Below, piece by piece: positions 13,289 through 27,196 of a stretch of DNA of 64,000 bases. The first letter of the stretch is position 1. Every line of letters starts with the position of its first letter. The stretch is from positions 64,799 to 128,798 of the forward strand of contig DAOUJJ010000006.1 in the NCBI GenBank assembly GCA_034422835.1, in the 5' to 3' direction. This DNA is from Dehalococcoidia bacterium (GTDB lineage Bacteria; Chloroflexota; Dehalococcoidia; UBA6926). The notes below the pieces were generated by a model, which was not told where the DNA came from, did no database searches, and saw nothing but the letters and a program-made list of their open reading frames with translations. Position numbers and translations under genes: made by a program.

Positions 13289-13879
13289 TTAACGCTCTTT
13301 GATGTGCGCGGTCGTGAATCTTCCGTAAGTGCCACTCTTGGACGGTCTCCAATCTCCGAGGCCGATGCGACGGCCGGCAACGTCGAACCAGGTCTCAAGT
13401 TTCTGGTGATCCACTAGTTCTTCATCGCAGTCCAGAACAATATCTACGCTCCAGGGCGTATCGAACTTCGCCCTTGTCCTCACGATTTTGCTGCGTTGAA
13501 CTACAACGACGCTCTGAAACTGTGTACTGTTCATCAACTCGTCGAACGTAGCACCATAGGTTTTAACATCGTACGTGAAGGTGGTTTCTAGTACGACCAA
13601 GCCTCCACGCACGTCGGGACCTTCACGGGTTTTTCGAGCTGCCTCTTCTATGCAAGCTCGGATGGCTTGGGGCGGGACCGTGACCGTATCCCCTTCGCGC
13701 CAGAGGCTGTTGAGCGTTTCGAGTTGTCGGAGTCTGGCGTCGTCCGATTCAGTTCGGTTTGTGCCACGTCTGCTGGTGATGGTCTGGATTTCTTTTGTAA
13801 AGGGGTTGCCGGGTAAGAGTCCGTCACTGGAGTGTTGGATGAGAGACGTTTCACCCTCGATTCTGACATCGTAAAGCAT
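13289..13879 (-). CDS. Hypothetical protein (196 aa) in a low-GC islet
   Basis: ATG at 13879 is preceded by GAGGAGG at -10. The ORF track extends to a TTG at 13918. Composition is diverse and no domain is recognised. GC is ~50% versus ~65% in flanks. Confidence 0.5.
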   Translation of the reverse strand: MLYDVRIEGETSLIQHSSDGLLPGNPFTKEIQTITSRRGTNRTESDDARLRQLETLNSLWREGDTVTVPPQAIRACIEEAARKTREGPDVRGGLVVLETTFTYDVKTYGATFDELMNSTQFQSVVVVQRSKIVRTRAKFDTPWSVDIVLDCDEELVDHQKLETWFDVAGRRIGLGDWRPSKSGTYGRFTTAHIKER

Positions 13880-14148
13880 TGGTCGATTGCCTCCTCGAAG
13901 ACTTGTTTGAACTGCCAAATGTCACCCTCAAACCGCCTGATTGCAGTTATGACGGAGTGGCAAATTGAGCACAGCCACGTTAGGTCATCCGATACCTCCG
14001 TTCCCACTGGTGGATAGTGGTAGTGGTGAGCTTCGACACCGGGCCGCTGCCCACACCCTTGGCAGAGGCCGTTGCTACGCGCTTGAGCCTCAGCGCGGGC
14101 TTTCCGATAAGCCTCTGTTTTGTAGCGGTCAGGTTCCTTGGGTGTCAT
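13648..14148 (-). CDS. HNH endonuclease (N-terminal HNH domain; 3' portion low-complexity and overlapping the downstream gene, possibly frame-disrupted)
   Basis: Residues 25-70 CQGCGQRPGVEAHHYHYPPVG...LTWLCSICHSV match a CxxC...H-H...CxxC HNH zinc-finger nuclease motif. The C-terminal ~90 aa are S/P/R-rich and overlap the 13289..13879 CDS by ~230 nt in another frame. Confidence 0.5.
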   Translation of the reverse strand: MTPKEPDRYKTEAYRKARAEAQARSNGLCQGCGQRPGVEAHHYHYPPVGTEVSDDLTWLCSICHSVITAIRRFEGDIWQFKQVFEEAIDQCFTMSESRVKRLSSNTPVTDSYPATPLQKKSRPSPADVAQTELNRTTPDSDNSKRSTASGAKGIRSRSRPKPSELA

Positions 14149-14305
14149 GGTCTCGATCCTCGCAAGAACGGCAGGTTGTCGCTGTGGAATAGGGTGCGGT
14201 TGGGGACGTTTAGGTCTGCCATGCGTAGTGTTCTCCGGCGTTTGCTGCGCCTATAGGGACAGGGTACAGGTTTTGCGCGGTCAATGCGAACGTATGGGCG
14301 GCGCT

Positions 14306-14331
14306 GGATTCCCGCGTGCGCGGGAATGACG
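14306..14331. repeat. REP-like palindromic element GGATTCCCGC-GTGC-GCGGGAATGACG
   Basis: Same palindrome core as at 6206, 11571, 12513, 37302, 37741 and 42895. Confidence 0.7.
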
Positions 14332-14402
14332 ATGGTGAGCAATCACGTCTTTAGATTCTTCGACTCCGCTGCGCTCCGCTCAGAATGACAGTTGGGGGCG
14401 CT

Positions 14403-14441
14403 CGCCCTTCGACAGGCTCAGGGTGAACGGTGGGGCGGGGG
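14403..14441. repeat. Companion repeat CGCCCTTCGACAGGCTCAGGGTGAACGGTGGGGCGGGGG
   Basis: Related copies at 42947-43007 and 12471-12490, reverse-complemented at 40775-40800, and partially at 37262-37290. Confidence 0.6.
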
Positions 14442-14449
14442 TTATGGGG

Positions 14450-15472
14450 TTACGCCGTCATTCTGAGGTTGGGGGTGGCGTCAAGGCTGCCGTTATCGGG
14501 TTGGGCGCCGTGCTCGATGACGAATGCGGCGCGGGCGGCGATCATCACGCCGTTGTCCGTGCAGAGTCCGGGGCGGGGCCGCCATACGGGCATGTCCGCT
14601 TTGCGCAGAACATCCTCGCCGAGGGCGCTGTTTGCCGCGACGCCGCCGGACAGCATGACCGACTTTGCCTTCGTCGCCCGAGCGACCTCCAGCAGGCGGT
14701 CCGCCAAGCCCGTGACGGCGGTCTGCTGAAAGCCCGCGGCGATGTTGGCGACATCCTCCTGCGTCAGCGCGTCCGTCCCGCCCATTTCGTTCACCACGCG
14801 GAGCACCGCCGTCTTGAGGCCGCTGAAGCTGAAATCCCATGAGTCCCTGATCAGCGGGCTGGGAAAACGGACGGGATCGGTCGCCTCACGCGCGACGCGT
14901 TCGATGATCGGGCCTCCTGGGTAGCCAAGGCCAAGCAGCCGCGCCACCTTGTCGAACGCCTCACCCGCGGCATCATCTCTCGTCTCGCTCAGTAGCCGGT
15001 AGTTCTCGTGCTCCTCAACCAGCACGATGTCCGTGTGGCCGCCGGAGACGATGAGCGCAACGGACGGCAGCAGCGGGTCGCCCCGCTCCTCACTGTCCCA
15101 CTGCCCGTCCACAATCCAGTTTGCATAGACGTGCCCCTCAAGGTGGTGGATGCCGTACAACGGCAGGTCCCACGCCATGGCGAGCGCCTTGGCGAAATTG
15201 ACGCCCACCAACAGGGAGCCCGCCAGCCCGGGGCCGTACGTGACGGCGATGGCATCGAGATTGAGGTCTCCGTCATGTTTCTGCATGACGTCACGCAGGA
15301 GCGTGGGGAACGTCAGCAGGTGTTGGCGTGACGCAATCTCCGGAACCACGCCGCCGAATCGCGCGTGGATATCCGCCTGTGATGAGAGTCCATGGACGAT
15401 GAGGCGCCGGCCGTCCTCAACGAGGGCGATGCCGGTCTCATCGCAAGACGATTCAATACCAAGGACTCTCAT
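14450..15472 (-). CDS. tsaD: tRNA N6-adenosine threonylcarbamoyltransferase
   Basis: Kae1/YgjD family with MRVLGIESSCDETG, HHLEGH and SGG motifs; 340 aa. Confidence 0.95.
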   Translation of the reverse strand: MRVLGIESSCDETGIALVEDGRRLIVHGLSSQADIHARFGGVVPEIASRQHLLTFPTLLRDVMQKHDGDLNLDAIAVTYGPGLAGSLLVGVNFAKALAMAWDLPLYGIHHLEGHVYANWIVDGQWDSEERGDPLLPSVALIVSGGHTDIVLVEEHENYRLLSETRDDAAGEAFDKVARLLGLGYPGGPIIERVAREATDPVRFPSPLIRDSWDFSFSGLKTAVLRVVNEMGGTDALTQEDVANIAAGFQQTAVTGLADRLLEVARATKAKSVMLSGGVAANSALGEDVLRKADMPVWRPRPGLCTDNGVMIAARAAFVIEHGAQPDNGSLDATPNLRMTA

Positions 15473-16282: not shown

Positions 16283-17545
16283 ATGCAGGAGGTCGAGACC
16301 ATTAGCCTTGCGCTATTGGGGCTCTCCTTTCTCTTTTCGGCAATCTTCTCAGGCACGGAGGCGGCTTTCCTCGCGTCACAACCGCATCGCCTGAGACACC
16401 TGGCCGAGAACGGTTCGCGAGGGGCGCGCATGGCGGCGGGGTTGAAGGAAAGGCCGGAGCGATTCCTTTCGACGCTGCTGGTCGGCAACAACCTTACCAA
16501 CACGGCCGCCGCGGCCATCGCAACCAGCATCGCCCTGACGCTGCTCGAGAACTCGGAGCAGGGACTCGTTGCCGCCACGGTTATCACCACCATTGCCCTG
16601 CTCGTCTTCGCGGAAATCACCCCCAAGACGGTTGGGGCGCGTCATGCCGAGCGCGTGATGGTGATACTCGCGCCGCCCTTCCGTGTTTTCTCCTTCGTTT
16701 TCGCGCCCGTCACGATCGTCTTCACAACGTTCGCGGGCTTTGTGGCATGGCTGACGGGCGGGACGCGCCGCGCAGTGGTGGACGCGCAGGAGTTCCGCGC
16801 AATGATCAGGACCGGCGTTGAGCAGGGAACCATGGAGGAGCGGGAGGCGGAGCTTGTCCACAAGGTGTTCCAGTTCGGCGACCGCATGGTCCGGGAGATC
16901 ATGACGCCGCGGACAGAGATCATCTGGGTGCGGAACGGAACGACGCTCTCGGAGTTTCTTGAGATATACGCGCAGCATTCCCACTCACACTTCCCCGTCC
17001 TGGGAGACGAGCCGGATACCGTGGCGGGCATCCTCGCCATCAAGAGCGTCCTCCACAAGCACGCTTTGGGTGAACTCACCATGAACAGTTCCATCACCAC
17101 GGACCTGCGTGAGACGCACTTCGTTCCGGAGACCAAGATGATTGACGACCTCATGGATGAGATGCGGGCGCAGCGGTCACGAATGGTGATGGTGGTCGAC
17201 GAGTTTGGCGATATTTCCGGCCTCGTGACGCTCAGCCGCGCCATCGAACTCATCGTCGGACGTGTGGATGATCCCGGCGACCCGCAAGCGTTCCAGGCGG
17301 TGGATGAGCGCACCGTGCGCGTGGACGGCATCATGCACATCGACGAACTGGCGGAGCAGTTGAACATCCACCTGCCGGACGGCGACGGCGAGTATGAGAC
17401 CATCGCCGGCTTCGTGCTCAAGCAGCTTGGGCGGATTCCTGAGGAGGGTGAAGCCCTCGTTCACGGCCCATACGAAATCACAGTGGCGCAGATCCACGGC
17501 GCGCGCATCGACGAGGTCACGGTGCGCACGGAGGACGCTGGGTGA
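16283..17545 (+). CDS. HlyC/CorC (CNNM) family transporter: DUF21 membrane domain + CBS pair + CorC_HlyC, 420 aa
   Basis: N-terminal 4-TM DUF21, paired CBS region, C-terminal transporter-associated domain. Typical TlyC-like architecture. Confidence 0.9.
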   Translation: MQEVETISLALLGLSFLFSAIFSGTEAAFLASQPHRLRHLAENGSRGARMAAGLKERPERFLSTLLVGNNLTNTAAAAIATSIALTLLENSEQGLVAATVITTIALLVFAEITPKTVGARHAERVMVILAPPFRVFSFVFAPVTIVFTTFAGFVAWLTGGTRRAVVDAQEFRAMIRTGVEQGTMEEREAELVHKVFQFGDRMVREIMTPRTEIIWVRNGTTLSEFLEIYAQHSHSHFPVLGDEPDTVAGILAIKSVLHKHALGELTMNSSITTDLRETHFVPETKMIDDLMDEMRAQRSRMVMVVDEFGDISGLVTLSRAIELIVGRVDDPGDPQAFQAVDERTVRVDGIMHIDELAEQLNIHLPDGDGEYETIAGFVLKQLGRIPEEGEALVHGPYEITVAQIHGARIDEVTVRTEDAG

Positions 17546-17575
17546 CGGAAGTATTGAACTTGCATGGGGGGATTT

Positions 17576-18647
17576 GGTGGAAGAAGTCAAACTGTGGGAA
17601 CTAGCCGGAACCCAGGCCAAGCCTTTGGGTTCGAATAACCAGTTGGAGTCCGAGGAGTCACTCGAAGATACCCTCGTCAACAACCCGGACCTGCTAATCG
17701 ACGGTCTGACACTGGTGGGACGGCAGACTCCCACCGAAGGCGGACCCCTTGATCTGCTGGGTGTCGATCCCGACGGCAAGCTGGTCGTGTTCGAGTTGAA
17801 GCGCGGGACGCTTTCGCGTGAGGCCGTCGCGCAAATCATCGATTACGCCTCCGACCTCGACAATATGGATCTCGATGCCCTAGCCGACCACATCTCAAAA
17901 AAGTCGGGCGATCATGGCATTGAGGAGATAGCGAACTTTCAGGAGTGGTACAGCGCGGAATTTGGGGAGTTAGACTCGCTGAAGCCCCTGCGTCTGTTCC
18001 TGGTTGGGCTGGGGACGGACGACCGAACGGAACGAATGGTGCGGTTTCTCGCCCAGAACAGCGGCATGGACATCTCGCTGCTGACCTTTCACGCGTTCGA
18101 CTATGACGGCAAGACCATCCTTGCCAAGCAAGTGGAAGTAGAGGCCGTGGCCGAACCCGATCGCCGCCCCACAAGGCGACGTCGGACGCCAGCGGAGTTA
18201 GACCGGGACTTCGACGAGAAGATGGAAAAGTATGGGACGCGTGATCTCGTCGATGCAGCTCACCGAATGTTCAAAGAGCATTGGCCGGGAGTGACAGGAC
18301 GCCCAGACCGCTTTGGACTCCACATTAGATTTCCCCATACAGATCGCCGTAAAGGATATACGCCACATGCACGCATTGACGCCTGGAGAGACGAAACAAT
18401 AAGCGTAGTCTTCTTCCGCCGTACCAAGGCACTGTGCCTGGATGAGTTCAGAGAACCCGTACGAGAGATTCCATATGCAACTTGGCCGAAAAATCGAGAC
18501 CCTTTGGACGACCCCAGGACAGAGATTCAGTTCCACCTGACCCTGCAAAGCTGGGACACTCACAAGGAACGCCTGACCGCTTTGCTGCAAGCCATCTACG
18601 CGGCATGGCAGAACAACGATCAGAATGGCGGCGCGGAATCAGAATGA
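17576..18647 (+). CDS. PD-(D/E)xK nuclease-fold protein related to NucS/DUF91, with additional C-terminal domain, 357 aa
   Basis: Motif GPLDLLGVDPDGKLVVFELKRGTLSREAVAQIIDYASDL gives the D...D...E-x-K...Q-Y signature of NucS-type RecB-like nucleases. GTG start 6 nt after GGGGGG. The ORF track's upstream extension overlaps the preceding gene. GC is slightly depressed. Confidence 0.6.
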
Positions 18648-19292: not shown

Positions 19293-20408
19293 ATGGCCTC
19301 AACCAACCGACAGGCGGCTTCGGACCTCGTTGGCAGTGTCCATAACGCGCTGGCATCCGGCGGTTTTCTGGGACGAGGAGCGCGTCTCCTTGTGGGGGTG
19401 TCCGGTGGCCCGGATTCAACCGCGCTGCTGGCGAGCCTCATTGAGCTGCGAGACGACTGCCGGCTTGAGCTGCGCGTCGTCCACGTGGACCACGGCCTAC
19501 GGGCTGAGTCACGGGGTGACGCGGAGTACGTGAGGCGTCTATGCGCCCGGTGGAATGTGCCCGGTAACGTGACGCGGGCGAATGTTAAAGAGCGCCGGCG
19601 GGCGGAGAGGTTGTCCGTTGAGGAGGCGGCGCGCAAGGCGCGCCATCACGCGCTGATGGACGAGGCTGCCGCGTCAGGAGCGGACGCCATCGTGCTTGGG
19701 CACACGGCGGATGACCACATCGAAACCGTGCTGCTGAGCCTGCTGCGCGGGGCGGGACTGCGCGGCCTGGCGGGGATGGCAGAGCAGTCGGAATCGCCGT
19801 TCACACTGCCCGGCGGGGAGCGCGTGCCGATCCTCCGCCCCCTGCTTGGCGTGACGCGGGCGGGCGTGATGGACTATCTGAAAGAGCGGCGGCTGCGGCC
19901 CCGGCAGGACGCGTCCAACGCGGATCCGGAGCATCTCCGGAATCGCGTGAGGCATGAGTTGCTGCCGCTGATGGAACGCATCCGCGGGGGCGCATCGGAC
20001 GCCGTTGGACGGGCATCGGAGGATGCCCGGCTCGCGCTGGAGTACGTGGAGTCGCAGGCGGACGAACTCTGGGGGGAGGCGTGCGAGATTGCGGCGGATG
20101 GGCAGTCGGTTCGCATCGACCGTGTAGTGATGCGCGGCGCGCACGCGGCGCTGCGGCACATCATCGTCGAGCGGGCGATCATATCGTTGTTGGGCTCGGC
20201 AGAGGGGTTCAGCCGGCGAAACTACCGGGATATCGACGCGATGATCACGACGGGCCGCACCCGCTCGGAGATCGATCTGCCGAAAGGGCTGCGCCTTGCC
20301 TGCGGGGACAAACGCACGGCGGCGCTGTCCGTCGGCGCGCGGATCAAGCGGCTGCGACGGGGCGTCATTGGAGAAGACTCGACGATAGAGGGTACTATTG
20401 AGGCATGA
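19293..20408 (+). CDS. tilS: tRNA(Ile)-lysidine synthetase
   Basis: PP-loop SGGPDS, followed by the HVDHGLR block. Confidence 0.9.
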   Translation: MASTNRQAASDLVGSVHNALASGGFLGRGARLLVGVSGGPDSTALLASLIELRDDCRLELRVVHVDHGLRAESRGDAEYVRRLCARWNVPGNVTRANVKERRRAERLSVEEAARKARHHALMDEAAASGADAIVLGHTADDHIETVLLSLLRGAGLRGLAGMAEQSESPFTLPGGERVPILRPLLGVTRAGVMDYLKERRLRPRQDASNADPEHLRNRVRHELLPLMERIRGGASDAVGRASEDARLALEYVESQADELWGEACEIAADGQSVRIDRVVMRGAHAALRHIIVERAIISLLGSAEGFSRRNYRDIDAMITTGRTRSEIDLPKGLRLACGDKRTAALSVGARIKRLRRGVIGEDSTIEGTIEA

Positions 20409-20737
20409 GCAGGCGACGAAATCAGACTCCGAGGCCGGGTCAGGGCGGCGGGCGCGATGGACGCGCCGGTCGCGGCGGCCAGCCAAATATGGGCGGGAAC
20501 CGGGCGGAGCGGCGGTCATTCCTGGAGCGGCTGCGCGTGCGTGAGGACGTGGCACCAGACGCGCCGTCGGGAATGCGGCGGGGGCAGCAGCGCGGCAACA
20601 ACAGGCCGCGACGCCGCGGCGAAGGCTGGACGTTCGGGCGCATATTCGTCCTGACTGTTATGGTTCTCATTGGCCTTGCAGTGGCGCTGAGCGGCTTCGT
20701 GGGGGTTCTCTCTCAAGGCGGGGGACCGACTAGCTAG
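20405..20737 (+). CDS. Hypothetical Arg/Gly-rich protein with C-terminal TM helix (110 aa), translationally coupled to tilS
   Basis: ATGA overlap with the tilS stop. The N-terminus is highly basic and the C-terminus is hydrophobic (IFVLTVMVLIGLAVALSGFVGVL). Could be real or GC-bias noise. Confidence 0.35.
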   Translation: MSRRRNQTPRPGQGGGRDGRAGRGGQPNMGGNRAERRSFLERLRVREDVAPDAPSGMRRGQQRGNNRPRRRGEGWTFGRIFVLTVMVLIGLAVALSGFVGVLSQGGGPTS

Positions 20738-20742
20738 CACGC

Positions 20743-20768
20743 TTGACATTATAGAACACATGTATTAT
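20743..20768 (+). promoter_or_regulatory. Putative promoter (TTGACA ... TATTAT) in a 30-bp AT-rich patch upstream of the Gp37/Gp68-TcmP pair
   Basis: Perfect -35 TTGACA at 20743-20748, with T/A-rich -10 candidates 14-16 nt downstream. Followed by a CCCCCTC...GAGGGGG inverted repeat at 20772-20800. Confidence 0.35.
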
Positions 20769-20806
20769 TCTCCCCCTCGCGGCGGGAGTGAGTGAGGGGG
20801 CGCGGC

Positions 20807-21550
20807 GTGGCATCGTCGATTGAGTGGACGGACGAGACGTGGAATCCCGTCACGGGCTGCTCACGTGTCTCCCCGGGCTGCGATAATTGCTACATGTTCG
20901 CGCTGTACCCGAGGCTGCACGCGATGGGCGTGCCGGGCTACGAGGAATCGGCGGACACGGTCAAGCTGCTGCCTGAGCGCCTCAATGCCCCGCTAACATG
21001 GGCCAAGCCGCGCCGCGTGTTCGTGAACAGCATGTCCGACCTGTTCCATCCCAAGGTGCCATTTGAGTTCATCTCGCAGGTCTTCGACGTCATGCGCCAA
21101 GCGGATCAGCACATTTTCCAAGTGCTGACCAAGCGGCCCGGCAAGGCAGCGGGATGGTGGGAGCAGTGCGGCAAGCATGAGTTCGGCGAGTGGCCGTCCA
21201 ACGTGTGGATCGGGACATCGGTCGAGAACCAGAAGTACGCCCCACGCCTGACTGTTCTTGGGCGGATTCCCGCCGACGTTCGCTTTGTATCCGCTGAGCC
21301 TCTGTTGGGGCCTTTGGATCTCACACACTGGCTTGAGAATGACACCTTGCAATGGGTCATCGTCGGTGGTGAGAGCGGATCCCGCGCACGACCAATGGAC
21401 GAAGAATGGGCAAATTCTTTGCAGGAGCAGACCCAAAATGCAAGGGTGAGCTTCTTCTTCAAGCAGTGGGGCGGCCGGCGGGGCAAACGCAGCGGGGAAG
21501 AGGCCATCCTGGCCGGCAGGACGTGGCAGGAGATGCCGGTCGCGGTTTGA
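20807..21550 (+). CDS. Phage protein Gp37/Gp68 family (DUF5131) with N-terminal three-Cys motif, 247 aa
   Basis: IEWTDETWNPVTGCSRVSPGCDNCY (C-x6-C-x2-C), then FVNSMSDLF, WVIVGGESG, FFFKQWG, all characteristic of PF07505. GTG start 6 nt after GAGGGGG. Confidence 0.8.
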   Translation: MASSIEWTDETWNPVTGCSRVSPGCDNCYMFALYPRLHAMGVPGYEESADTVKLLPERLNAPLTWAKPRRVFVNSMSDLFHPKVPFEFISQVFDVMRQADQHIFQVLTKRPGKAAGWWEQCGKHEFGEWPSNVWIGTSVENQKYAPRLTVLGRIPADVRFVSAEPLLGPLDLTHWLENDTLQWVIVGGESGSRARPMDEEWANSLQEQTQNARVSFFFKQWGGRRGKRSGEEAILAGRTWQEMPVAV

Positions 21551-21554
21551 ATCG

Positions 21555-22412
21555 ATGACCCAGCACCCTTCATTCGGCGGCCCGTGGACTCAGGAAAAAC
21601 TTGACATTCTGAGCCATTACTTGAATTCGTACACAACTGCACTCAAGAATTTTTCCTTTAACCTCATTTATATTGATGCCTTCGCCGGATCAGGTTCCTA
21701 TCAGATGGGCACTCTGGACCCTAACAGCCCTTATCAGGATTTTGACGACCATCGCCAAGGGTCTGCCAGGTTAGCCCTTGATGTCGACGACAAGCCGTTT
21801 GACCGACTTATCTACATCGAGAAGAATCCCGAATTTGTGACTTCTCTAAATGCAATAAAGCGCCAGAACCCTAAACGCTCTATAGATGTGATTGAGGGTG
21901 ACGCCAACGAAGAACTACCAAAGATTTGCGAGGCTATGGGTCCGAGAGACAGAGCAGTAATGTTCCTTGACCCGTACAAAACAGAGGTTAATTGGGTGAC
22001 AGTAGAAGCGATTGCGAAGACTGAAAAGATCGACTGCTGGATACTCTTTCCATTGATGGCGCTCACTCGAATGATGGATAAAGACGAACGGCCAAGTGAA
22101 AGCCTTTCGCTTGAACTGGATCGGGTTTTCGGTGAGAGACATTATTGGCAAGACAATCTCTATCGCCGCTCGGAGCAACAGTCGTTATTCCCGGACGAAG
22201 AACTTGTGGTTAGAGAGCCTCAGTATCGGATTGCTGAGGTATATCGAGACAGACTAGCGACCATATTTGCCGCCATTGCACCAACTAGACGCTTACTTGT
22301 GAACTCCCAGAACGCGCCATTGTTCGAACTGATCTTTGCTGTTGCTTCTCCAAGTCCTCGTGCAAAATCGCTAGCTATACGGATTGCTGAGCATAACCTT
22401 TCGAGCCCATGA
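21555..22412 (+). CDS. TcmP-like (three-Cys-motif partner) protein with Dam-like methyltransferase motifs, 285 aa
   Basis: Immediately downstream of Gp37/Gp68, the conserved family pairing. Contains IYIDAFAGSGSY (motif I, FxGxG) and VMFLDPYK (motif IV, DPPY-like). GC is ~48%, well below flanks. Confidence 0.7.
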   Translation: MTQHPSFGGPWTQEKLDILSHYLNSYTTALKNFSFNLIYIDAFAGSGSYQMGTLDPNSPYQDFDDHRQGSARLALDVDDKPFDRLIYIEKNPEFVTSLNAIKRQNPKRSIDVIEGDANEELPKICEAMGPRDRAVMFLDPYKTEVNWVTVEAIAKTEKIDCWILFPLMALTRMMDKDERPSESLSLELDRVFGERHYWQDNLYRRSEQQSLFPDEELVVREPQYRIAEVYRDRLATIFAAIAPTRRLLVNSQNAPLFELIFAVASPSPRAKSLAIRIAEHNLSSP

Positions 22413-22420
22413 CGCCCCCC

Positions 22421-23176
22421 TCACCTTACCCGTGGCCTGCCGCCGAAGCGGAGGCGGGCGAGGCCTTTGATGTCTTCCCAGGCGGTGGAGATGATCTTGA
22501 CCCTCGTGTCCGGATCTTCTTCCCACGCGACGGGGAAATCGGCAATCGGGTAGCGGTTTTTCTCGGCCAAGAGCAGCAGTTCGGTATCGAAGAACCACGC
22601 GTTGTCCTTGATGAGCGGCAGGAGATTGTCAGCGGCGCGTCGGCTGATGGCCTTGAAGCCGCACTGCGCGTCCGAGAACCCGCTCCAGAACACCGACTTG
22701 ATCATCAGGTTGTAGGAACGCGAGACGAACTCGCGCTTGAATGAGCGCGTCGTCTGTGCGCCCCGCTTGAGGCGGGAGCCAGTCGCCACGTCGTGGCCGT
22801 CCCTGACCGCGCCAAGCAGGTCCGGGATGCGGTTGATGTCCGTCGAGAGGTCCACGTCCATGTAGGCGCGGATATCGGCGTCGCTCTCGCTCCACGCCCG
22901 TTTGAGCGCCCTGCCGCGTCCCTTTTGCTCCAGGTGGACGACGCCGACTTCACCCTCAAACAGCGCCGCCAACTGATTCGCCACTTCAAGCGTGCCGTCC
23001 ACAGAGCCGTTGTCGGCGATAACGACGCGCCAGCGGTAGTCGGTTAGATTCTCGCGGCAATACGGCAGCAGGCGTTCAAGGCAGACGGGCAGCGAGTGCT
23101 CCTCGTTGTAGACGGGGATAACGATGTCGGCGGAGGGGCGCGATTCAGGCGCATCCGCGGCAGGAGTGTCCGTCAT
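22421..23176 (-). CDS. GT2-family glycosyltransferase (polyprenol-phosphate sugar transferase-like), 251 aa
   Basis: VIPVYNEE, DNGSVDGT and DxD (DVD) motifs. Confidence 0.85.
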   Translation of the reverse strand: MTDTPAADAPESRPSADIVIPVYNEEHSLPVCLERLLPYCRENLTDYRWRVVIADNGSVDGTLEVANQLAALFEGEVGVVHLEQKGRGRALKRAWSESDADIRAYMDVDLSTDINRIPDLLGAVRDGHDVATGSRLKRGAQTTRSFKREFVSRSYNLMIKSVFWSGFSDAQCGFKAISRRAADNLLPLIKDNAWFFDTELLLLAEKNRYPIADFPVAWEEDPDTRVKIISTAWEDIKGLARLRFGGRPRVR

Positions 23177-23185
23177 GACTGCCGC

Positions 23186-24745
23186 CTAGTGTCGGAAATG
23201 GCGGATGCCGGTGAATACCATTGCAGCGTTGGCTTTGTTGGCGGCGGCGATGACCTCATCGTCACGGACGGAGCCGCCGGGCTGCACGGCCGCCGTGACG
23301 CCGCCCGTGAGCGCCATCTCCAGCCCGTCCGCGAACGGGAAGAAGGCGTCCGAGGCCACGACCGCGCCCTGCACGTCGTCCCCGGCCAGTTTCAGCGCAA
23401 GCTCCACGCTGATGAGGCGATTCGGTTGTCCTGCGCCCATGCCGAGCAACGCGCCGTCTTTCACAATCACGATGGCGTTGGACTTCACATGCCGCGCCGC
23501 TTTCCACGCGAACCGGAGATCGGCGAGTTCAGCGTCCGTCGGGGCGCGCTCCGTCACCGTCTGCCACTCGCCCATCTCGCCCATGTCCGCCGCCTGCACG
23601 AGGAATCCGCCGCGCACCGTGCGGATATCCAGCGACGGCGTGGCGGCGGACGAATCTCCCATTTCAAGCAGGCGCAGGTTGCGCTTTTGCGTGAGCACCG
23701 AGAGCGCGTCATCGTCGTAGGAGGGGGCGATGACAATCTCATAGAACGCCTCGTTGATGGCCTCCGCCGTCGCCTTGTCCATCGGGCGGTTGGCGGCGAT
23801 GATGCCGCCGAACGCGGAGACGGGGTCGCCTGCAAGGGCGCGGCTAAACGCGGTGGCGAGGTCGGGCGCGGTGGCGAGGCCGCAGGGGTTGCCGTGCTTG
23901 ATGATGGCAACCGTGGGGGCGTCCGGGAAATCGCAGACGATGTTCCACGCGGCGTCCGCGTCAAGGATGTTGTTGAAGGACATCTCACGGCCATGGACCT
24001 GGCGCGCGGACGGGATGCCCTGCGCGGGGCGGCCCGGGTCGTTGACGCGGTAGAGCCCGCCCGCCTGGTGGGGATTCTCACCGTAGCGGAGCGACTGAAT
24101 GGATTGGAGAGCCAGCACCCGCTCTGCGGGGAGTGCGGCAGCCTCATCGTCCATGCCGGCGGCGCCCAAGTCCCGCGCGAGGTAGTTGGCGATGATCGTG
24201 TCATAGGCGGAGACGTGCTCAAATGCCTTGCGGGCAAGGCGACGGCGCTCGGCGACGGGGACGACGCCTGCGCGCAGCATCTCCAGCACCTGCGCGTAAT
24301 CGGCGGGGTCAATCAGGACGATGACGGCGGGGAAATTCTTGGCGGCGGCGCGGACCATCGTCGGGCCGCCGATGTCGATCTGCTCCAGCGCGTCCATGAG
24401 CGTCACGTCCGGCTTCGAAACGGTCTCCGCGAAGGGATAGAGATTGACGGCGATGAGGTCGATGGTGCCGATTCCATGCTCCTCCATCTGCGCCACGTGA
24501 GCCGGCTCCTCGCGCTTGGCGAGAATGCCGCCGTGGACGCGGGGATGGAGCGTCTTGACGCGGCCATCGAGTATCTCCGGGAAGCCCGTCAGGTCCTCGA
24601 TGTGACGCGCGTCGACGCCAGCGCCTGTCAGGAAGCGATGGGTGCCGCCTGTCGCGTACACCTCCCACCCGAGATCGGTCAGTCCGTGCGCGAGATCGTC
24701 CGCGCCGTCCTTGTTCGATGGGGCGATGATTGCTCGAAACGTCAT
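23186..24745 (-). CDS. purH: Bifunctional AICAR transformylase / IMP cyclohydrolase
   Basis: MGS-like N-terminal domain plus AICARFT domain, 519 aa. ATGA-coupled to purM. Confidence 0.97.
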   Translation of the reverse strand: MTFRAIIAPSNKDGADDLAHGLTDLGWEVYATGGTHRFLTGAGVDARHIEDLTGFPEILDGRVKTLHPRVHGGILAKREEPAHVAQMEEHGIGTIDLIAVNLYPFAETVSKPDVTLMDALEQIDIGGPTMVRAAAKNFPAVIVLIDPADYAQVLEMLRAGVVPVAERRRLARKAFEHVSAYDTIIANYLARDLGAAGMDDEAAALPAERVLALQSIQSLRYGENPHQAGGLYRVNDPGRPAQGIPSARQVHGREMSFNNILDADAAWNIVCDFPDAPTVAIIKHGNPCGLATAPDLATAFSRALAGDPVSAFGGIIAANRPMDKATAEAINEAFYEIVIAPSYDDDALSVLTQKRNLRLLEMGDSSAATPSLDIRTVRGGFLVQAADMGEMGEWQTVTERAPTDAELADLRFAWKAARHVKSNAIVIVKDGALLGMGAGQPNRLISVELALKLAGDDVQGAVVASDAFFPFADGLEMALTGGVTAAVQPGGSVRDDEVIAAANKANAAMVFTGIRHFRH

Positions 24746-25782
24746 TCGCGCTCCATTCGGAGGATGATCTGATCGCCATCCGGCGGGCGTTCTTCAATTG
24801 TGCCGATCTGCGCGCTGCCCTCCATGGCGGACATCACCATCGGCGCGTCCTGCGGGCGTACGACGGCGACCATCCCCATGCCCATGTTGAACACGTCATA
24901 CATCTCTGTCAGCGGGATTTCGCCGCGACTGCTGATGAGACGAAAGATGGGGGGCACAGTCCACGCGCCGCAGTCGACGACAGCCTGCAGGTTATCCGGC
25001 AGGACGCGCGGCACGTTTTCCGCGTAGCCGCCGCCCGTGATATGGGCGAGCCCGCGGACACGCCGCCGCATCGGCTTCAGTTCCTGATAATAGGGCCGGT
25101 GGACGGCCAACAACGCCTCAGCGACTGTCTTGCCGTCGAGTTCAGGCGGTCTTTCGTCAAGGTTCTCAGGGTGATCATCAAGATCAAAGACGCGGCGGGC
25201 CAACGAGTAGCCGTTGGTGTGGAGGCCCGTTGAGGGCAGGCCGACGAGGACGTCACCCGCGCGGATGCCCGTCCCGTCAATGAGGTCCCAGCGCTCCACC
25301 GCGCCAACGATGAATCCGGCGACATCATAGTGGCCCTCACGGTATGTGCCGGGCATCTCGGCAGTTTCGCCGCCGATGAGAGCGATGCCGGCAGCGCTGC
25401 ACGCCTCCGCAATGCCCCGCACGATGTCAGCGGCATCCTGTGGATTGAGACTTTCGGCGGCGATGTAGTCCAGGAAGAAGAGCGGATCGGCGCCCTGCAC
25501 CCAGATATCGTTGATGCAGTGATTCACCAGATCCGCGCCAATGCTCGCGAACGATCCGGCCTGCTTGGCGATGTTGATCTTGGTGCCCACGCCGTCGGCG
25601 CTGGCAACGAGTATCGGCTCACGGTAGGAATCCAGCTTGAAAAGTCCGCCAAAGCCGCCGATGTCGCCCAAAACGCGGTTGTTATACGTGGACTGAGCGA
25701 ATGGGCGCATCAGGCGCACGGCCTCTTGCCCCGCGCCGATGTTCACACCGGCTGCCGCGTAGCTCGACTCCGAATCAGACAC
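24742..25782 (-). CDS. purM: Phosphoribosylformylglycinamidine cyclo-ligase
   Basis: AIR synthase motifs (SYAAAGVNIGAG, DGVGTK, GGETAEMPG). A GTG start overlapping the purF stop gives a 347-aa product. The ORF-track start at 25959 would overlap purF by 185 nt. Confidence 0.9.
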   Translation of the reverse strand: MSDSESSYAAAGVNIGAGQEAVRLMRPFAQSTYNNRVLGDIGGFGGLFKLDSYREPILVASADGVGTKINIAKQAGSFASIGADLVNHCINDIWVQGADPLFFLDYIAAESLNPQDAADIVRGIAEACSAAGIALIGGETAEMPGTYREGHYDVAGFIVGAVERWDLIDGTGIRAGDVLVGLPSTGLHTNGYSLARRVFDLDDHPENLDERPPELDGKTVAEALLAVHRPYYQELKPMRRRVRGLAHITGGGYAENVPRVLPDNLQAVVDCGAWTVPPIFRLISSRGEIPLTEMYDVFNMGMGMVAVVRPQDAPMVMSAMEGSAQIGTIEERPPDGDQIILRMERE

Positions 25783-27196
25783 GCAGGGGGAGCCGCTCCA
25801 ACGCAAATTTATCAAGCTCAACCTGGACAGGGACGGTGTATTCACCCGTGAAGCACGCTGTGCAGAAACCCGGCCCTTCCTGGGCGACGGACGTGTACAG
25901 GCTCGGGACATCAAGGAATCCGAGGCTGTCAACGCCGAGCTCGTCACGAACCTCTTCAACGCTGCGGTCCGACGCGAGCAACTCGGCCCGGTTCGGCATA
26001 TCGATGCCGTAGTGGCAGGGATAGCGGATGGGTGGGGCGCAGACGCGGAGATGAATCTCCTTCGCCCCGGCGCTGCGGAGCAGGTCGATCAGGTGACGCG
26101 TCGTTGTGCCCCGCACGATGCTGTCGTCCACGATCACCAGACGCTTACCCTCGATGACCTCTCGTAGAGGGGTCAGCTTGAGGCGGACGCCCTCGTCGCG
26201 GAGGCGCTGATCGGGTTGAATGAATGTGCGGCCAACATAGCGGTTCTTGACCAGCGTCTCGTAGAACGGGATGCCGGAGCCGTGCGCGTAGCCGATGCCG
26301 GCTGCGTTGGCGGAGTCCGGAACGGCGCTGACGATGTCCGCCTCGACCGGGTGCATCCGCGCCAGTTCTTTGCCCATCGCCTCGCGGCTCAGATAGACGC
26401 GCCGACCTTCCAGAACGGAGTCGGGGCGTGAGAAGTAGATGTGCTCAAAGATGCAGAGGGATCGCGCCTCACGGCGTCCAAACGTGGAATGAAGACCGGT
26501 TGAGTCGATGCGCACTATTTCGCCGGGCTCCACGTCCCGAACGAACTCTGCGCCTACGTTCTCCAGAGCGCACGTCTCAGAAGCGGCCATATAGCCGGAC
26601 TCGCCGACACGTCCAAGGCTTAGCGGGCGGAATCCGTGCGGATCCCGAACGGCATAGACGGCGTCCTTGGTGAGGATGGTCAGGCTGTACGCGCCCTCAA
26701 GTCGGAGCATTGCCGCCGTGATCTTCTCCTCCCATGTTTCGCCGGGGAGGACGGCGATGAGTTGGGCGATAACTTCGGAATCGGTGGACGTGACGAACTG
26801 CGCGCCGAGTTCAAGCGCCTCCTCCCGCAGGAGTTCGGCATTGACCACGTTGCCGTTGTGCGCGATGAGGACTTCTCCGAGGGGGCCGTTGGCCGGAATG
26901 GGCTGGGCATTGGCGAGCGTGGAGCTGCCGGTGGTGGAGTAGCGGGTGTGGCCGATAGCGAGTTTGCCGGGGATGACGTTCAGGGTGTGCTCATCGAAAA
27001 CACGGTTGACGAGGCCAAGCCCGCGGTAGAGGTGGAGTTCCTGGTTGTCGTCAGAAGCGGCGATGCCGGCGCTTTCCTGGCCGCGGTGCTGGAGGGAAAA
27101 GATACCGAAAAAGGCAGCCCGAGCGGCGTCACCGCCCGGTAGGTAGATGCCAACGACGCCGCAAGCGTCGTGCAACTTGTCGTCGTCCACTCTCAC
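25775..27196 (-). CDS. purF: Amidophosphoribosyltransferase
   Basis: N-terminal CGVVG (Ntn Cys), PRTase domain, C-terminal Cys cluster; 473 aa. Confidence 0.95.
   Translation of the reverse strand: MRVDDDKLHDACGVVGIYLPGGDAARAAFFGIFSLQHRGQESAGIAASDDNQELHLYRGLGLVNRVFDEHTLNVIPGKLAIGHTRYSTTGSSTLANAQPIPANGPLGEVLIAHNGNVVNAELLREEALELGAQFVTSTDSEVIAQLIAVLPGETWEEKITAAMLRLEGAYSLTILTKDAVYAVRDPHGFRPLSLGRVGESGYMAASETCALENVGAEFVRDVEPGEIVRIDSTGLHSTFGRREARSLCIFEHIYFSRPDSVLEGRRVYLSREAMGKELARMHPVEADIVSAVPDSANAAGIGYAHGSGIPFYETLVKNRYVGRTFIQPDQRLRDEGVRLKLTPLREVIEGKRLVIVDDSIVRGTTTRHLIDLLRSAGAKEIHLRVCAPPIRYPCHYGIDMPNRAELLASDRSVEEVRDELGVDSLGFLDVPSLYTSVAQEGPGFCTACFTGEYTVPVQVELDKFALERLPLRV

What the first reader, a model, noticed from the sequence alone, without database searches (positions are those of the whole stretch)
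20740..22412. Gp37/Gp68 (three-Cys) + TcmP gene pair with its own AT-rich promoter: candidate uncharacterised nucleic-acid modification/defense module
A 30-bp AT-rich patch with a perfect TTGACA sits in ~65% GC DNA, followed by a GC-clamp inverted repeat. It precedes a PF07505-type protein (CSRVSPGCDNC three-Cys motif) and, 4 nt later, a TcmP-like protein. The TcmP-like protein has the Dam-class motifs IYIDAFAGSGSY (motif I) and VMFLDPYK (DPPY-like motif IV), and its GC is ~48%. From established database knowledge this pairing is conserved across phages and bacteria, but to my knowledge it has no assigned function. The MTase-like motifs plus a radical-SAM-reminiscent Cys triad suggest a DNA/RNA modification or anti-restriction role. 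Horizontal acquisition is suggested by the GC drop and the convergent GT2 gene downstream.
Basis: partly seen in the sequence, partly recalled or inferred. Interest (0 to 1): 0.75.

Follow-up and report, generated by a model that had tools for sequence, protein, structure and literature searches.

The report
SOS-controlled radical-SAM-like and TcmP gene pair
This known but uncharacterised two-gene pair (a three-cysteine radical-SAM-like enzyme plus a methyltransferase-fold partner) has a promoter carrying the same operator as recA, so it is probably switched on by DNA damage, which gives a testable lead to its function.

Summary
A DUF5131/PF07505 gene (20807-21550) and a TcmP/TIGR04474 gene (21555-22412) form a bicistronic unit behind a sigma-70-like promoter, and TcmP has 48% GC against about 63% in the flanks.

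The pair is already catalogued: TcmP is named as the PF07505 partner, and PADLOC lists the pair as untested candidate PDC-M41. It is therefore a member of a known, function-unknown kind.

- **SOS operator.** The AT-rich patch holds a GAAC-N4-GTTC-type operator between -35 and -10. The motif recurs upstream of the pair in about half of 78 unrelated Chloroflexota loci. A matrix built only from those sites also finds recA promoters.
- **Mycobacterial link.** In the M. tuberculosis complex the pair is Rv2735c/Rv2734. It lies directly after recA-recX, is co-transcribed with recA, and responds to mitomycin C.
- **Partner range and turnover.** TcmP also pairs or fuses with two other SPL-related radical SAM families. 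At this locus TcmP is replaced by recombination: its synonymous sites are saturated while the flanks show dS of about 0.3.

TcmP has a class I methyltransferase fold with invariant SAM-binding and DP(Y/F) motifs. It resembles RlmJ/RsmD, not Dam.

Best reading: a LexA-repressed, DNA-directed two-enzyme module. The chemistry is untested, and a conflict or defence role remains possible.

The parts
20743..20748 (+). -35 hexamer TTGACA of the operon promoter
   Evidence: 10/12 match to consensus. A TTGACA-like hexamer precedes the operator at a fixed spacing in 37 of 41 loci that carry the box.
20751..20768 (.). LexA-type (Cheo-box-like) operator ATAGAACACATGTATTAT. The core GAACACATGTAT spans 20754-20765, in the spacer between -35 and -10.
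   Evidence: It scores 16.8 bits with the PWM. The same GAAC-N4-GTAT variant precedes recA in L041 and in the closest metagenomic Dehalococcoidia recA loci.
20766..20771 (+). -10 hexamer TATTCT
20772..20800 (+). GC-rich inverted repeat in the short 5' leader. Its 3' arm, GAGGGGG (20794-20800), is the ribosome-binding site.
   Evidence: It folds at -25.7 kcal/mol with z = -0.53, which is not significant. It is conserved only in L005.
20807..21550 (+). DUF5131 / PF07505 ('phage Gp37/Gp68') three-Cys radical-SAM-like protein of 247 aa. An alternative upstream GTG lies at 20792.
   Evidence: - PF07505, E = 3e-90.
- PADLOC PDC-M41B, E = 8.9e-93.
- TIGR04471, E = 8.8e-13, below the family cut-off.
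- Invariant C18/C25/C28 and GGESG.
- AF2 model at pLDDT 79 with a (beta/alpha) barrel-like core.
21555..22412 (+). TcmP (three-Cys-motif partner protein) of 285 aa, with a class I SAM-methyltransferase fold
   Evidence: - TIGR04474, 193 bits.
- PDC-M41A, E = 5.5e-80.
- AF2 model at pLDDT 85 and pTM 0.83.
- Motif conservation across the family.
21238..21477 (+). Divergent (recombined) segment within the 3' third of DUF5131
   Evidence: Nucleotide identity to L005 is 0.60-0.72 here, against about 0.9 on either side.
21598..22422 (+). Replaced TcmP allele. The right-hand breakpoint falls exactly at the TcmP and GT2 stop codons.
   Evidence: Nucleotide identity to L005 is 0.42-0.70, then 0.93 or more from 22423 onward. 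Synonymous sites are saturated (pS 0.78-0.92), while the flanks have dS 0.22-0.42. The allele tree disagrees with the flanking-gene tree.

Best explanation
The locus is a LexA-repressed, DNA-damage-inducible bicistronic operon. It encodes a two-enzyme module that acts on nucleic acid, most probably DNA.

Proposed sequence of events
1. In undamaged cells a LexA-type repressor occupies the GAAC-N4-GT(T/A)(C/T) operator. The operator lies inside the core promoter, between -35 and -10.
2. DNA damage activates RecA, LexA cleaves itself, and the promoter fires.
3. DUF5131 and TcmP are translated from one mRNA (4-nt gap between the genes).
4. TcmP is a class I SAM-binding methyltransferase-fold protein of the RlmJ/RsmD type. 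I propose it binds the substrate and flips a target or damaged base into its D-P-(Y/F) pocket, either methylating it or presenting it.
5. DUF5131 is a highly conserved three-Cys (CX6CX2C) enzyme. It is classed with spore photoproduct lyase and SplB-like 'DNA repair photolyases' in the radical SAM superfamily. I propose it performs 5'-deoxyadenosyl-radical chemistry on that nucleotide, either direct lesion reversal or a damage-linked base modification.
6. TcmP is the exchangeable targeting subunit and DUF5131 is the conserved catalytic core.

Shown here or in the literature
- The operator, its enrichment, and its sharing with recA.
- Strict gene pairing.
- The folds and the conservation of the motifs.
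- Pairing or fusion of TcmP with three SPL-related radical SAM families.
- Membership of the recA operon and a mitomycin C response in M. tuberculosis.
- Allelic replacement of TcmP.

Inferred
- LexA binding itself.
- Fe-S cluster binding and SAM cleavage.
- Methyl transfer.
- DNA as the substrate.
- Physical interaction between the two proteins.
- Repair as the outcome, rather than a conflict role.
For: Regulation
- A GAAC-N4-GTTC core with at most 1 mismatch lies within 150 nt upstream of DUF5131 in 28 of 78 loci. The same is true of 31 of 608 control upstream regions (Fisher p = 1.2e-13).
- An 18-nt PWM gave 61 hits of 12 bits or more in 1.61 Mb. Of these, 42 lie directly upstream of the pair, including the window and the TcmP-first locus L080.
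- The spacing from the -35 hexamer to the box is fixed at 17-20 nt in 25 loci and at 5-7 nt in 9 loci, the class that includes the window.
- The PWM was trained only on pair sites, yet it hits recA promoters. It scores 12 bits or more in 21 of 77 recA upstream regions against 14 of 911 other windows. The nearest Dehalococcoidia recA genes carry TTAGAACATATGTATTTA.
- GAAC-N4-GTTC is the LexA motif of Firmicutes and Actinobacteria, with variants in Chloroflexi (PMC4951493).

Cross-phylum support
- The M. tuberculosis-complex locus reads recA(intein)-recX-TcmP(Rv2735c), with DUF5131 (Rv2734) convergent (family scores).
- A perfect SOS box lies upstream of that recA.
- Rv2735c is co-transcribed with recA (PMC3062782).
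- Rv2734, Rv2735c, recX and recA form a differentially expressed cluster after mitomycin C (PMC5057432).
- Two Chloroflexota loci have the pair within about 3.5 kb of recA.

Enzymology
- The TcmP model is confident and has a methyltransferase fold.
- A TcmP profile hits an RsmD-like methylase, aligning LDP-Y with LDPPY.
- Motifs I, III and IV are nearly invariant across the family.
- DUF5131 has invariant Cys residues. It is listed in radical SAM Megacluster-5-2, beside SPL (PMC9477430).
- TcmP also occurs with a PA0069/Rv2578c-family radical SAM protein, and fused to DUF1848.
- SplB-like radical SAM genes are LexA-regulated in many phyla (PMC4951493).

DNA context in phages
- Solo DUF5131 genes lie in replication, recombination and methylase modules.
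Against: - Nothing biochemical is known for either family.
- Pfam's Radical_SAM model does not match DUF5131. The cysteine spacing is non-canonical.
- About half of the Chloroflexota loci lack a clear box.
- No LexA-type box was found upstream of the pair on the Nocardioides, Nostoc and S. meliloti plasmids or in phage BaxterFox.
- One Chloroflexota recA (L060) lacks the box.
- Several features are typical of conflict systems rather than housekeeping repair genes:
  - TcmP allele turnover.
  - Patchy and mobile distribution.
  - Plasmid neighbours McrBC, BREX and Hna.
- The actinobacterial TcmP subfamily, including Rv2735c, has DQQ in place of DP(Y/F). Methyl transfer may therefore not be universal.
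- Rv2735c is frameshifted in many clinical M. tuberculosis isolates (PMC9846648), so it is dispensable there.
Confidence: 0.45

Rival explanations
1. The pair is an anti-phage or anti-mobile-element defence system (PADLOC candidate PDC-M41). TcmP acts as a fast-evolving sensor or specificity subunit, or as a self-marking methyltransferase. DUF5131 acts as the effector that damages or modifies invading nucleic acid. SOS control would then couple the system to prophage induction or to infection-associated DNA damage.
For: - Both proteins match the PDC-M41 models strongly.
- On plasmids the pair sits next to McrBC plus an N6-methylase, BREX genes and the Hna defence gene (PMC12445080).
- In temperate phage BaxterFox it lies between the integrase and the immunity repressor.
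- TcmP shows allele replacement with saturated synonymous sites and a tree that disagrees with the flanks.
- A PDC-S11 (NucS_C-like) candidate gene lies 3 kb upstream in the window.
- A few Chloroflexota neighbours are IetA, type IIG R-M, or Mrr.
Against: - No experimental test was found.
- Most immediate neighbours in 75 loci are metabolic housekeeping genes.
- No nuclease, toxin or abortive-infection effector domain is present.
- DUF5131 is unusually conserved for a defence effector (65-90% identity across phyla).
- Placement in the recA operon in M. tuberculosis fits a DNA-damage role more directly.
Confidence: 0.3
2. The pair is a stable-RNA (rRNA or tRNA) modification pair. TcmP would be an RlmJ/RsmD-like RNA methyltransferase and DUF5131 an RlmN/Cfr- or MiaB-like radical SAM RNA modifier.
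For: - The best structural and profile neighbours of TcmP are rRNA and tRNA methyltransferases: RlmJ, RsmD-like, Trm1, CmoA.
- The window gene lies just after tilS. In M. tuberculosis DUF5131 abuts miaB.
- Some phage annotators label DUF5131 'RNA methyltransferase'.
Against: - The tilS neighbourhood is confined to six close relatives, and no neighbour family is shared by more than 8 of 80 loci.
- Housekeeping RNA-modification genes are not normally swapped between alleles, carried on plasmids or phages, or placed under a recA-type operator.
- TcmP does not match the Pfam RlmJ or RsmD families at E <= 0.01.
Confidence: 0.12
3. The pair is a selfish mobile two-gene cassette with no benefit to the host. 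It would be an addiction-like modification/damage pair, or hitch-hiking genes, and the LexA boxes would only time its expression or transfer to host stress, as with prophages and integrons.
For: - The pair occupies many unrelated chromosomal sites with no conserved third gene.
- It occurs on conjugative plasmids and in temperate phages.
- The cassette-like recombination breakpoints fall exactly at gene ends.
- Other PWM hits precede a phage integrase and a Uma2 nuclease.
Against: - No recombinase, transposase or flanking repeats accompany the pair in the window.
- The pair is kept at one locus across genomes that have diverged to dS of about 1.
- DUF5131 is under strong purifying selection (dN 0.07-0.15 against dS 0.6-1.4).
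Confidence: 0.1

Closest known systems
TcmP / PF07505 pair as defined by NCBIfam TIGR04474, listed as PADLOC candidate system PDC-M41
   Same: Both window proteins match these models far above threshold, and the genes are adjacent and co-oriented. Adjacency holds in 80 of 80 related loci.
   Different: Nothing differs in architecture: this is an ordinary member. The catalogue entries carry no function, no regulation and no experimental test. The LexA operator, the recA-operon link and the TcmP allele turnover are not part of those descriptions.
SplB-like 'DNA repair photolyase' radical SAM proteins (COG1533; PA0069/Rv2578c family) and spore photoproduct lyase
   Same: - Both belong to the same radical SAM megacluster as DUF5131 (PMC9477430).
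- SplB-like genes are LexA-regulated in Actinobacteria, Proteobacteria and Verrucomicrobia (PMC4951493), as proposed here for DUF5131-TcmP.
- TcmP is found next to a PA0069/Rv2578c-family protein in Nostoc.
   Different: - DUF5131 has CX6CX2C rather than CX3CX2C.
- It does not match Pfam Radical_SAM.
- A profile comparison with the Nostoc SplB-like protein aligns only the Cys motif, at 2.7% probability.
- SPL and SplB act without a methyltransferase-fold partner.
RlmJ (23S rRNA m6A2030 methyltransferase) and RsmD-like amino-methyltransferases
   Same: - The motif I variant DxxAGxGxYQ is shared with RlmJ.
- LDP-Y aligns with the LDPPY motif IV of an RsmD-like methylase.
- TcmP and RlmJ are of similar length, about 280 aa.
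   Different: - There is no significant sequence match to RlmJ (E about 0.5) or to the corresponding Pfam families.
- One Pro of motif IV is missing.
- TcmP is obligately linked to a radical-SAM-like gene, is mobile and is hypervariable.
- RlmJ and RsmD are solitary, vertically inherited housekeeping genes.
'Radical SAM mobile pair' proteins A and B (TIGR04471 / TIGR04470)
   Same: DUF5131 proteins give significant but sub-threshold matches to pair protein A (E = 8.8e-13 and 2.5e-19). The Nostoc TcmP neighbour matches pair protein B weakly. Both are two-gene mobile units built around SPL-related radical SAM proteins.
   Different: The scores are far below the equivalog cut-offs (48-70 bits against 355). 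The partner here is a methyltransferase-fold protein, not a second radical SAM enzyme.

Membership tests
DUF5131 / PF07505 (phage Gp37/Gp68) | Match to the Pfam model above the gathering score | tested here: met
   302.4 bits against a cut-off of 28.9, covering profile positions 2-243 of 243.
DUF5131 / PF07505 (phage Gp37/Gp68) | Conserved N-terminal three-cysteine motif | tested here: met
   C18, C25 and C28 (numbered from the 20807 start) are invariant in 39 homologues of 68-90% identity.
TcmP (TIGR04474) | Match to the NCBIfam model above its cut-off | tested here: met
   193.1 bits against a cut-off of 53, covering profile positions 1-261 of 263.
TcmP (TIGR04474) | Encoded next to, or fused with, a three-Cys (PF07505-type) protein | tested here: met
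   The gap in the window is 4 nt. Adjacency holds in 80 of 80 loci. A fusion to DUF1848 is seen in P0340.
PADLOC PDC-M41 candidate defence system | Both component HMMs (M41A and M41B) match adjacent genes | tested here: met
   M41A E = 5.5e-80 and M41B E = 8.9e-93.
PADLOC PDC-M41 candidate defence system | Protection against phage | not testable with these tools
   No paper mentions PDC-M41. This needs an experiment.
Radical SAM superfamily | CX3CX2C motif, or an accepted variant, ligating a [4Fe-4S] cluster | tested here: inconclusive
   The motif is CX6CX2C-Y, not canonical. It aligns locally with GCxxxGCxxCY of an SplB-like protein with a 3-residue insertion, but at only 2.7% probability. 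Cluster binding cannot be tested here.
Radical SAM superfamily | Match to Pfam Radical_SAM (PF04055) or to a curated radical SAM family | tested here: not met
   There is no PF04055 hit. TIGR04471 scores 48 bits against a cut-off of 355. The family is nevertheless listed as a radical SAM subgroup, Megacluster-5-2 (PMC9477430).
Radical SAM superfamily | Partial (beta/alpha)6 TIM-barrel core | tested here: inconclusive
   [not shown]
Class I SAM-dependent methyltransferases (amino-methyltransferase type) | Rossmann-like methyltransferase fold | tested here: met
   [not shown]
Class I SAM-dependent methyltransferases (amino-methyltransferase type) | Motif I (D/E-x-x-x-G-x-G) and motif IV ((D/N/S)-P-P-(Y/F/W)) | tested here: inconclusive
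   Motif I, DAFAGSG, is present and about 97-99% conserved. Motif IV is D-P-(Y/F), lacking the second Pro, with D 100% and P 99% conserved. The actinobacterial subfamily has DQQ instead. Methyl transfer has not been tested.
RlmJ family (PF04378) / RsmD family (PF03602) | Significant sequence match to the family model | tested here: not met
   No Pfam family matches at E <= 0.01. RlmJ chains score E about 0.5. The profile reaches an RsmD-like chain at E = 8e-4 over 80 residues only. A few homologues carry a precomputed PF03602 hit.
Dam-class (alpha) DNA adenine methyltransferases | Sequence or structure match to Dam-type DNA methyltransferases | tested here: not met
   [not shown]
LexA (SOS) regulon | LexA-type operator overlapping the promoter, shared with core SOS genes of the same clade | tested here: met
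   Searches give the enrichment and the fixed spacing. Searches show the same motif at recA. PMC4951493 gives the identity of the motif.
LexA (SOS) regulon | LexA binding and DNA-damage induction | not testable with these tools
   For the M. tuberculosis orthologues only, the literature shows co-transcription with recA (PMC3062782) and differential expression after mitomycin C (PMC5057432). Nothing is known for Chloroflexota.

The most novel reading that the evidence does not exclude
The TcmP/DUF5131 pair, together with its TcmP/SplB-like and TcmP-DUF1848 relatives, would be a new class of SOS-induced, radical-based DNA processing system. A conserved SPL-clade radical SAM catalytic subunit would be aimed at particular bases, lesions or sequences by an exchangeable base-flipping subunit with a methyltransferase fold. 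The nearest analogy is the swapping of specificity subunits in restriction-modification systems. The outcome would be either a novel direct-reversal DNA repair pathway or a radical 'restriction/modification' activity that operates during DNA damage and prophage induction.
Probability: 0.25. Interest if true: 0.85.

Novelty: new member of a known kind. Interest (0 to 1): 0.6.

Why it matters
The two families are widespread. TcmP alone has about 5,000 clusters at 50% identity. DUF5131 gave more than 8,000 hits and occurs in 180 phage genomes. Neither has a known function.

If the pair belongs to the SOS response, four things follow:
- Rv2735c and Rv2734, the unexplained genes attached to the M. 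tuberculosis recA operon, gain a rationale.
- A radical-SAM-plus-methyltransferase-fold module joins the DNA-damage toolkit, beside the equally uncharacterised SplB-like proteins.
- Experimenters get a clear induction condition (mitomycin C or UV) and clear phenotypes to test.
- Interpretation of the PADLOC candidate PDC-M41 is tempered. Embedding in defence islands on plasmids and SOS control on chromosomes have to be reconciled.

Tried and rejected
- **The GC-clamp hairpin as a regulatory element.** Its folding energy is no better than that of shuffled sequence (z = -0.53), and it is conserved only in L005. Rejected.
- **A third conserved gene.** I clustered 810 neighbouring ORFs within 6 kb of the pair. 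No family occurs in more than 8 of 80 loci.
- **Defence-island context in Chloroflexota.** Pfam and PADLOC scans of 139 immediate neighbours show mostly metabolic genes and only scattered defence hits. No clear enrichment; a proper background is still lacking.
- **LexA boxes of the appropriate clade type in other taxa.** None was convincing upstream of the pair in the Nocardioides, Nostoc and S. meliloti plasmids, or in the BaxterFox and Synechococcus phages.
- **Other strong boxes in the window.** AGAAC-N4-GTTCT with up to 2 mismatches gives 10 matches against 15.8 expected. No lexA, recA, dinB or uvrA gene was detected in the window by tblastn.
- **Sequence-level homology of DUF5131 to solved structures or to an SplB-like protein.** No PDB sequence hit. 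hhalign gives 2.7% probability.
- **Foldseek of the DUF5131 model against PDB.** Only weak, generic TIM-barrel hits.
- **Literature.** No paper gives a function for TcmP, DUF5131, PF07505, Gp37/Gp68 or PDC-M41.
- **Dam-class assignment.** Rejected; see the membership tests.
Full report
**1. What is at the locus**

- A promoter-like site lies in a 29-bp AT-rich patch: TTGACA at 20743, a 17-nt spacer, then TATTCT ending at 20771. This is a 10/12 match to the sigma-70 consensus.
- A short GC-rich inverted repeat follows. Its 3' arm, GAGGGGG, is the ribosome-binding site.
- Two co-oriented genes follow, separated by 4 nt.
  - Gene A matches PF07505/DUF5131 at E = 3e-90. Its homologues are 247 aa long, so the likely start is GTG at 20807 rather than 20792.
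[quoted passage not shown] It has no Pfam match.
- GC falls to 0.45-0.49 across gene B, against 0.62-0.70 around it.
- A GT2 glycosyltransferase gene converges on gene B from 9 nt away.
- The inverted repeat is unremarkable. It folds at -25.7 kcal/mol, z = -0.53 against shuffles, and it is conserved only in the nearest relative.

**2. Is the pair known?**

Yes, as an uncharacterised pair.
- The TIGR04474 name itself records the partnership.
- PADLOC-DB lists the two proteins as candidate defence system PDC-M41 (E = 5.5e-80 and 8.9e-93).
- RadicalSAM.org lists DUF5131 as radical SAM Megacluster-5-2, beside MJ0683-like (5-1) and spore photoproduct lyase (5-3) (PMC9477430).
- Full-text searches found no paper that assigns or tests a function.

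**3. The proteins**

*TcmP*
- The AlphaFold2 model is confident (pLDDT 85, pTM 0.83).
- At sequence level the five best PDB matches are all RlmJ, but they are not significant (E about 0.5). They align DAFAGSGSYQ with DTHAGAGRYQ.
- A TcmP profile reaches an RsmD-like methylase at E = 8e-4 and aligns LDP-Y with LDPPY.
- The family has 5,037 representatives at E <= 1e-3. In 140 diverse members (median 38% identity to the query) the key residues are nearly invariant:
  - motif I: D41, F43, G45 and G47, each 96-99% conserved;
  - N118, 97%;
  - R133, 99%;
  - D139, 100%, and P140, 99%;
  - D160, 100%.
- 'Dam-class' is the wrong label. No Dam-type or other DNA methyltransferase appears in any search.
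- A divergent actinobacterial subfamily carries IDLMAGQP and F(L/I)DQQ instead. Catalytic methyl transfer may therefore not be universal.

*DUF5131*
- It is unusually conserved: 65-90% identity across Chloroflexota, Latescibacterota, Rhodothermaceae and Spirochaetia contigs.
- C18, C25 and C28 (a CX6CX2C pattern) and a GGESG motif are invariant.
- The model (pLDDT 79) has six beta-alpha units.
- Pfam Radical_SAM does not match. TIGR04471, 'radical SAM mobile pair protein A', matches significantly but far below its cut-off.
- The radical SAM assignment therefore rests on the cysteine triad, the barrel-like fold, these weak homologies and the database classification. No direct test supports it.

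**4. Gene neighbourhoods**
- A genome scan with the TcmP profile returned 80 loci, nearly all from Dehalococcoidia or other Chloroflexota MAGs. This places the window in that group.
- DUF5131 lies next to TcmP in 80 of 80 loci. The usual layout is DUF5131 immediately upstream with a gap of 0-60 nt. Two loci have the order reversed.
- Five loci (L001-L005) share the window's arrangement from the CBS-domain gene through tilS to purF. The other 75 have unrelated flanks.
- No third gene family occurs in more than 8 loci.
- The 139 immediate neighbours are mainly metabolic (IMPDH, gamma-glutamyltranspeptidase, dehydrogenases, hydrolases). A few are defence genes: IetA, type IIG R-M, Mrr.
- The conserved unit is therefore just the two genes and their promoter.

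**5. The promoter carries an SOS-type operator**

When I aligned the upstream regions, a palindrome of the form AGAACATATGTTCT recurred in unrelated loci.
- **Enrichment of the core.** A GAAC-N4-GTTC core with at most 1 mismatch lies within 150 nt upstream of DUF5131 in 28 of 78 loci. The figure for control upstream regions in the same loci is 31 of 608 (Fisher p = 1.2e-13).
- **PWM scan.** An 18-nt PWM with consensus TTAGAACATATGTTCTAA, built from 26 of these sites, gave 61 hits of 12 bits or more in 1.61 Mb. Of these, 42 lie directly upstream of the pair, and 16 of those 42 were not in the training set. They include the window site (ATAGAACACATGTATTAT, 20751-20768, 16.8 bits) and the TcmP-first locus L080.
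- **Fixed position.** The distance from the -35 hexamer to the GAAC core is 17-20 nt in 25 loci, so the box overlaps -10 and the start site. It is 5-7 nt in 9 loci, so the box lies in the spacer; this class includes the window and its five syntenic relatives.
- **Independent test on recA.**
  - One of the non-pair hits precedes recA in L041 (TTAGAACGCATGTATTGA; RecA by Pfam at E = 1.6e-131).
  - I then fetched 80 metagenomic recA loci related to that gene.
  - The PWM had never seen a recA site, yet it scores 12 bits or more in 21 of 77 recA upstream regions, against 14 of 911 other windows.
  - The closest Dehalococcoidia-type recA genes carry TTAGAACATATGTATTTA at 22 bits.
[quoted passage not shown] 2002).

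I conclude that the 'AT-rich promoter' is a LexA-repressible promoter. LexA binding itself is inferred. About half of the loci show no clear box, and one recA (L060) also lacks it.

**6. Independent support from mycobacteria**
- A paper on M. bovis BCG notes that BCG_2748c carries a TcmP domain and that recX is BCG_2749c (PMC7387457).
- In M. tuberculosis the gene after recA-recX is Rv2735c (PMC3062782).
- I recovered the protein as P0415/P0422 (330 aa; P0415 has 681 member sequences). It contains the peptides NPLASE and KGTNAE(L), which are encoded by the published Rv2735c primers.
- It scores 201.9 bits on TIGR04474.
- Its contig reads as follows:
  - recA with intein;
  - recX;
  - TcmP;
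  - a convergent DUF5131 gene that overlaps the TcmP 3' end (PF07505, 342 bits; this is Rv2734);
  - miaB.
- A perfect GAACAGGTGTTC box precedes that recA.
- Published experiments show that Rv2735c is co-transcribed with recA and recX (PMC3062782). They also show that Rv2734, Rv2735c, recX and recA form the largest differentially expressed cluster after mitomycin C (PMC5057432).
- In two Chloroflexota loci the pair lies within about 3.5 kb of recA.
- The link to the DNA-damage response therefore recurs in two phyla through two different genomic solutions.

**7. TcmP partners with several SPL-related radical SAM families**
- On a Nostoc plasmid, TcmP is divergently paired with a PA0069/Rv2578c-family (SplB-like) radical SAM protein, beside brxL and brxA.
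- In P0340, TcmP is fused to DUF1848, which has a C-terminal CX3CX2C.
- SplB-like proteins are themselves LexA-regulated in many phyla and have been proposed as core SOS components (PMC4951493).

**8. TcmP is the exchangeable part**

Window compared with its closest relative, L005:

| Gene(s) | dS |
|---|---|
| Flanking genes | 0.22-0.42 |
| DUF5131 | 0.61 |
| TcmP | saturated (pS 0.78) |

- TcmP is only 58-64% identical to the alleles at the same locus in five relatives whose GT2 proteins are 82-97% identical. The allele relationships disagree with those of the flanking genes.
- Nucleotide identity to L005 runs as follows:

| Window coordinates | Identity to L005 |
|---|---|
| up to 21237 | about 0.9 |
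| 21238-21477 (3' third of DUF5131) | 0.60-0.72 |
| 21478-21597 | 0.85-0.93 |
| 21598-22422 (TcmP) | 0.42-0.70 |
| from 22423 | 0.93 or higher |

- This pattern indicates allelic replacement by recombination, not relaxed constraint.
- All alleles at this locus have low GC (0.48-0.52).
- The GC drop therefore marks a circulating TcmP allele pool. It does not mark a recent arrival of the pair.

**9. Mobile contexts elsewhere**
- TcmP occurs in 5 of 50,697 phage records and DUF5131 in 180.
- In Gordonia phage BaxterFox the pair lies between the integrase and the immunity repressor.
- Solo phage DUF5131 genes lie in replication, recombination and methylase modules.
- On plasmids the pair is next to McrBC, BREX or Hna (PMC12445080).
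- No LexA-type boxes were evident in these cases.
- These contexts keep the defence reading alive.

**10. Verdict**

The best-supported account is a LexA-controlled operon encoding a conserved SPL-clade radical-SAM-like enzyme and an exchangeable, RlmJ/RsmD-like base-flipping partner that act on DNA during the damage response.

My confidence differs by step:
- about 0.8 for SOS control in this lineage;
- about 0.5 for DNA as the substrate;
- about 0.35 for repair as opposed to a conflict role.

The pair is a member of a known, uncharacterised kind. The regulatory link, the identification of Rv2735c/Rv2734 as this pair, and the allele turnover are the new and testable elements.

Noticed in passing
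window 17394-18647 (+): A 417-aa ORF with a NucS_C endonuclease domain (PF01939, E = 1.4e-9) matches PADLOC single-gene candidate PDC-S11 (E = 2e-34). It is more variable than its flanks in the syntenic relatives (62-74% identity) and was not detected in L001. It is a second candidate defence gene 3 kb from the pair.
   Followed up: partly
window 20405-20737 (+): A 110-aa ORF overlaps the tilS stop codon. Its N-terminal part is Arg/Gly-rich and basic, and its C-terminus is hydrophobic. It has no family match but is conserved in L001-L005 (52-90% identity), so it is probably a real gene and not part of the pair.
   Followed up: partly
L052 4312; L031 16356; L037 4283 and 2438; L030 19489: High-scoring copies of the same operator precede other genes: a Uma2-family putative nuclease, an HD-domain protein, a phage-type integrase, a VWA protein and a MetE-like protein. 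These are candidate further members of a Chloroflexota SOS regulon.
   Followed up: partly
L076 about 3085-3116: Two operator-like sites lie in tandem upstream of the pair (AGAACAAATGTCTA followed by AAGAATATATGTTCTT). This resembles the tandem LexA sites described for Verrucomicrobia lexA promoters.
   Followed up: no
L041 12556-13665 and L060 about 13551-14522: recA lies about 2-3.5 kb downstream of the DUF5131-TcmP pair in two otherwise unrelated Chloroflexota genomes. The L060 recA and the L060 pair both lack a recognisable box.
   Followed up: partly
L083 8903-10150 (-), S. meliloti pSymA: A 415-aa ORF with a GMT-like wHTH domain (PF22560, E = 4e-7) lies between TcmP (SMa2243) and DUF5131, directly downstream of the Hna defence helicase. 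It could be a third component in the rhizobial version.
   Followed up: no
P0415 / L166 6001-6993; L082 5738-6721; L165 4980-5933: The actinobacterial TcmP subfamily, including Rv2735c, replaces DAFAGSG with D(L/V)MAG(Q/E)P and LDP(Y/F) with (L/I)DQQ. In these loci the two genes are convergent and overlap at their 3' ends rather than being co-oriented.
   Followed up: partly
P0241 (552 aa), P0327 (412 aa), P0350 (382 aa): P0241 looks like a tandem duplication of TcmP and could be an assembly artefact. P0327 and P0350 carry N-terminal extensions of 90-125 aa with no Pfam match.
   Followed up: no
L168 7048-7719 (Burkholderia phage phi1026b): An SOS-response-associated peptidase (SRAP) gene lies about 2.6 kb downstream of the end of the solo DUF5131 gene and next to the integrase/attP region. 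This is another loose association of DUF5131 with SOS-related functions.
   Followed up: no
window 24742-25959 / 25775-27196 (-): The mechanically listed purM ORF starts far upstream of the conserved PurM domain and overlaps purF by about 185 nt. The true purM start is probably internal: the homologue in L170 is 346 aa.
   Followed up: no
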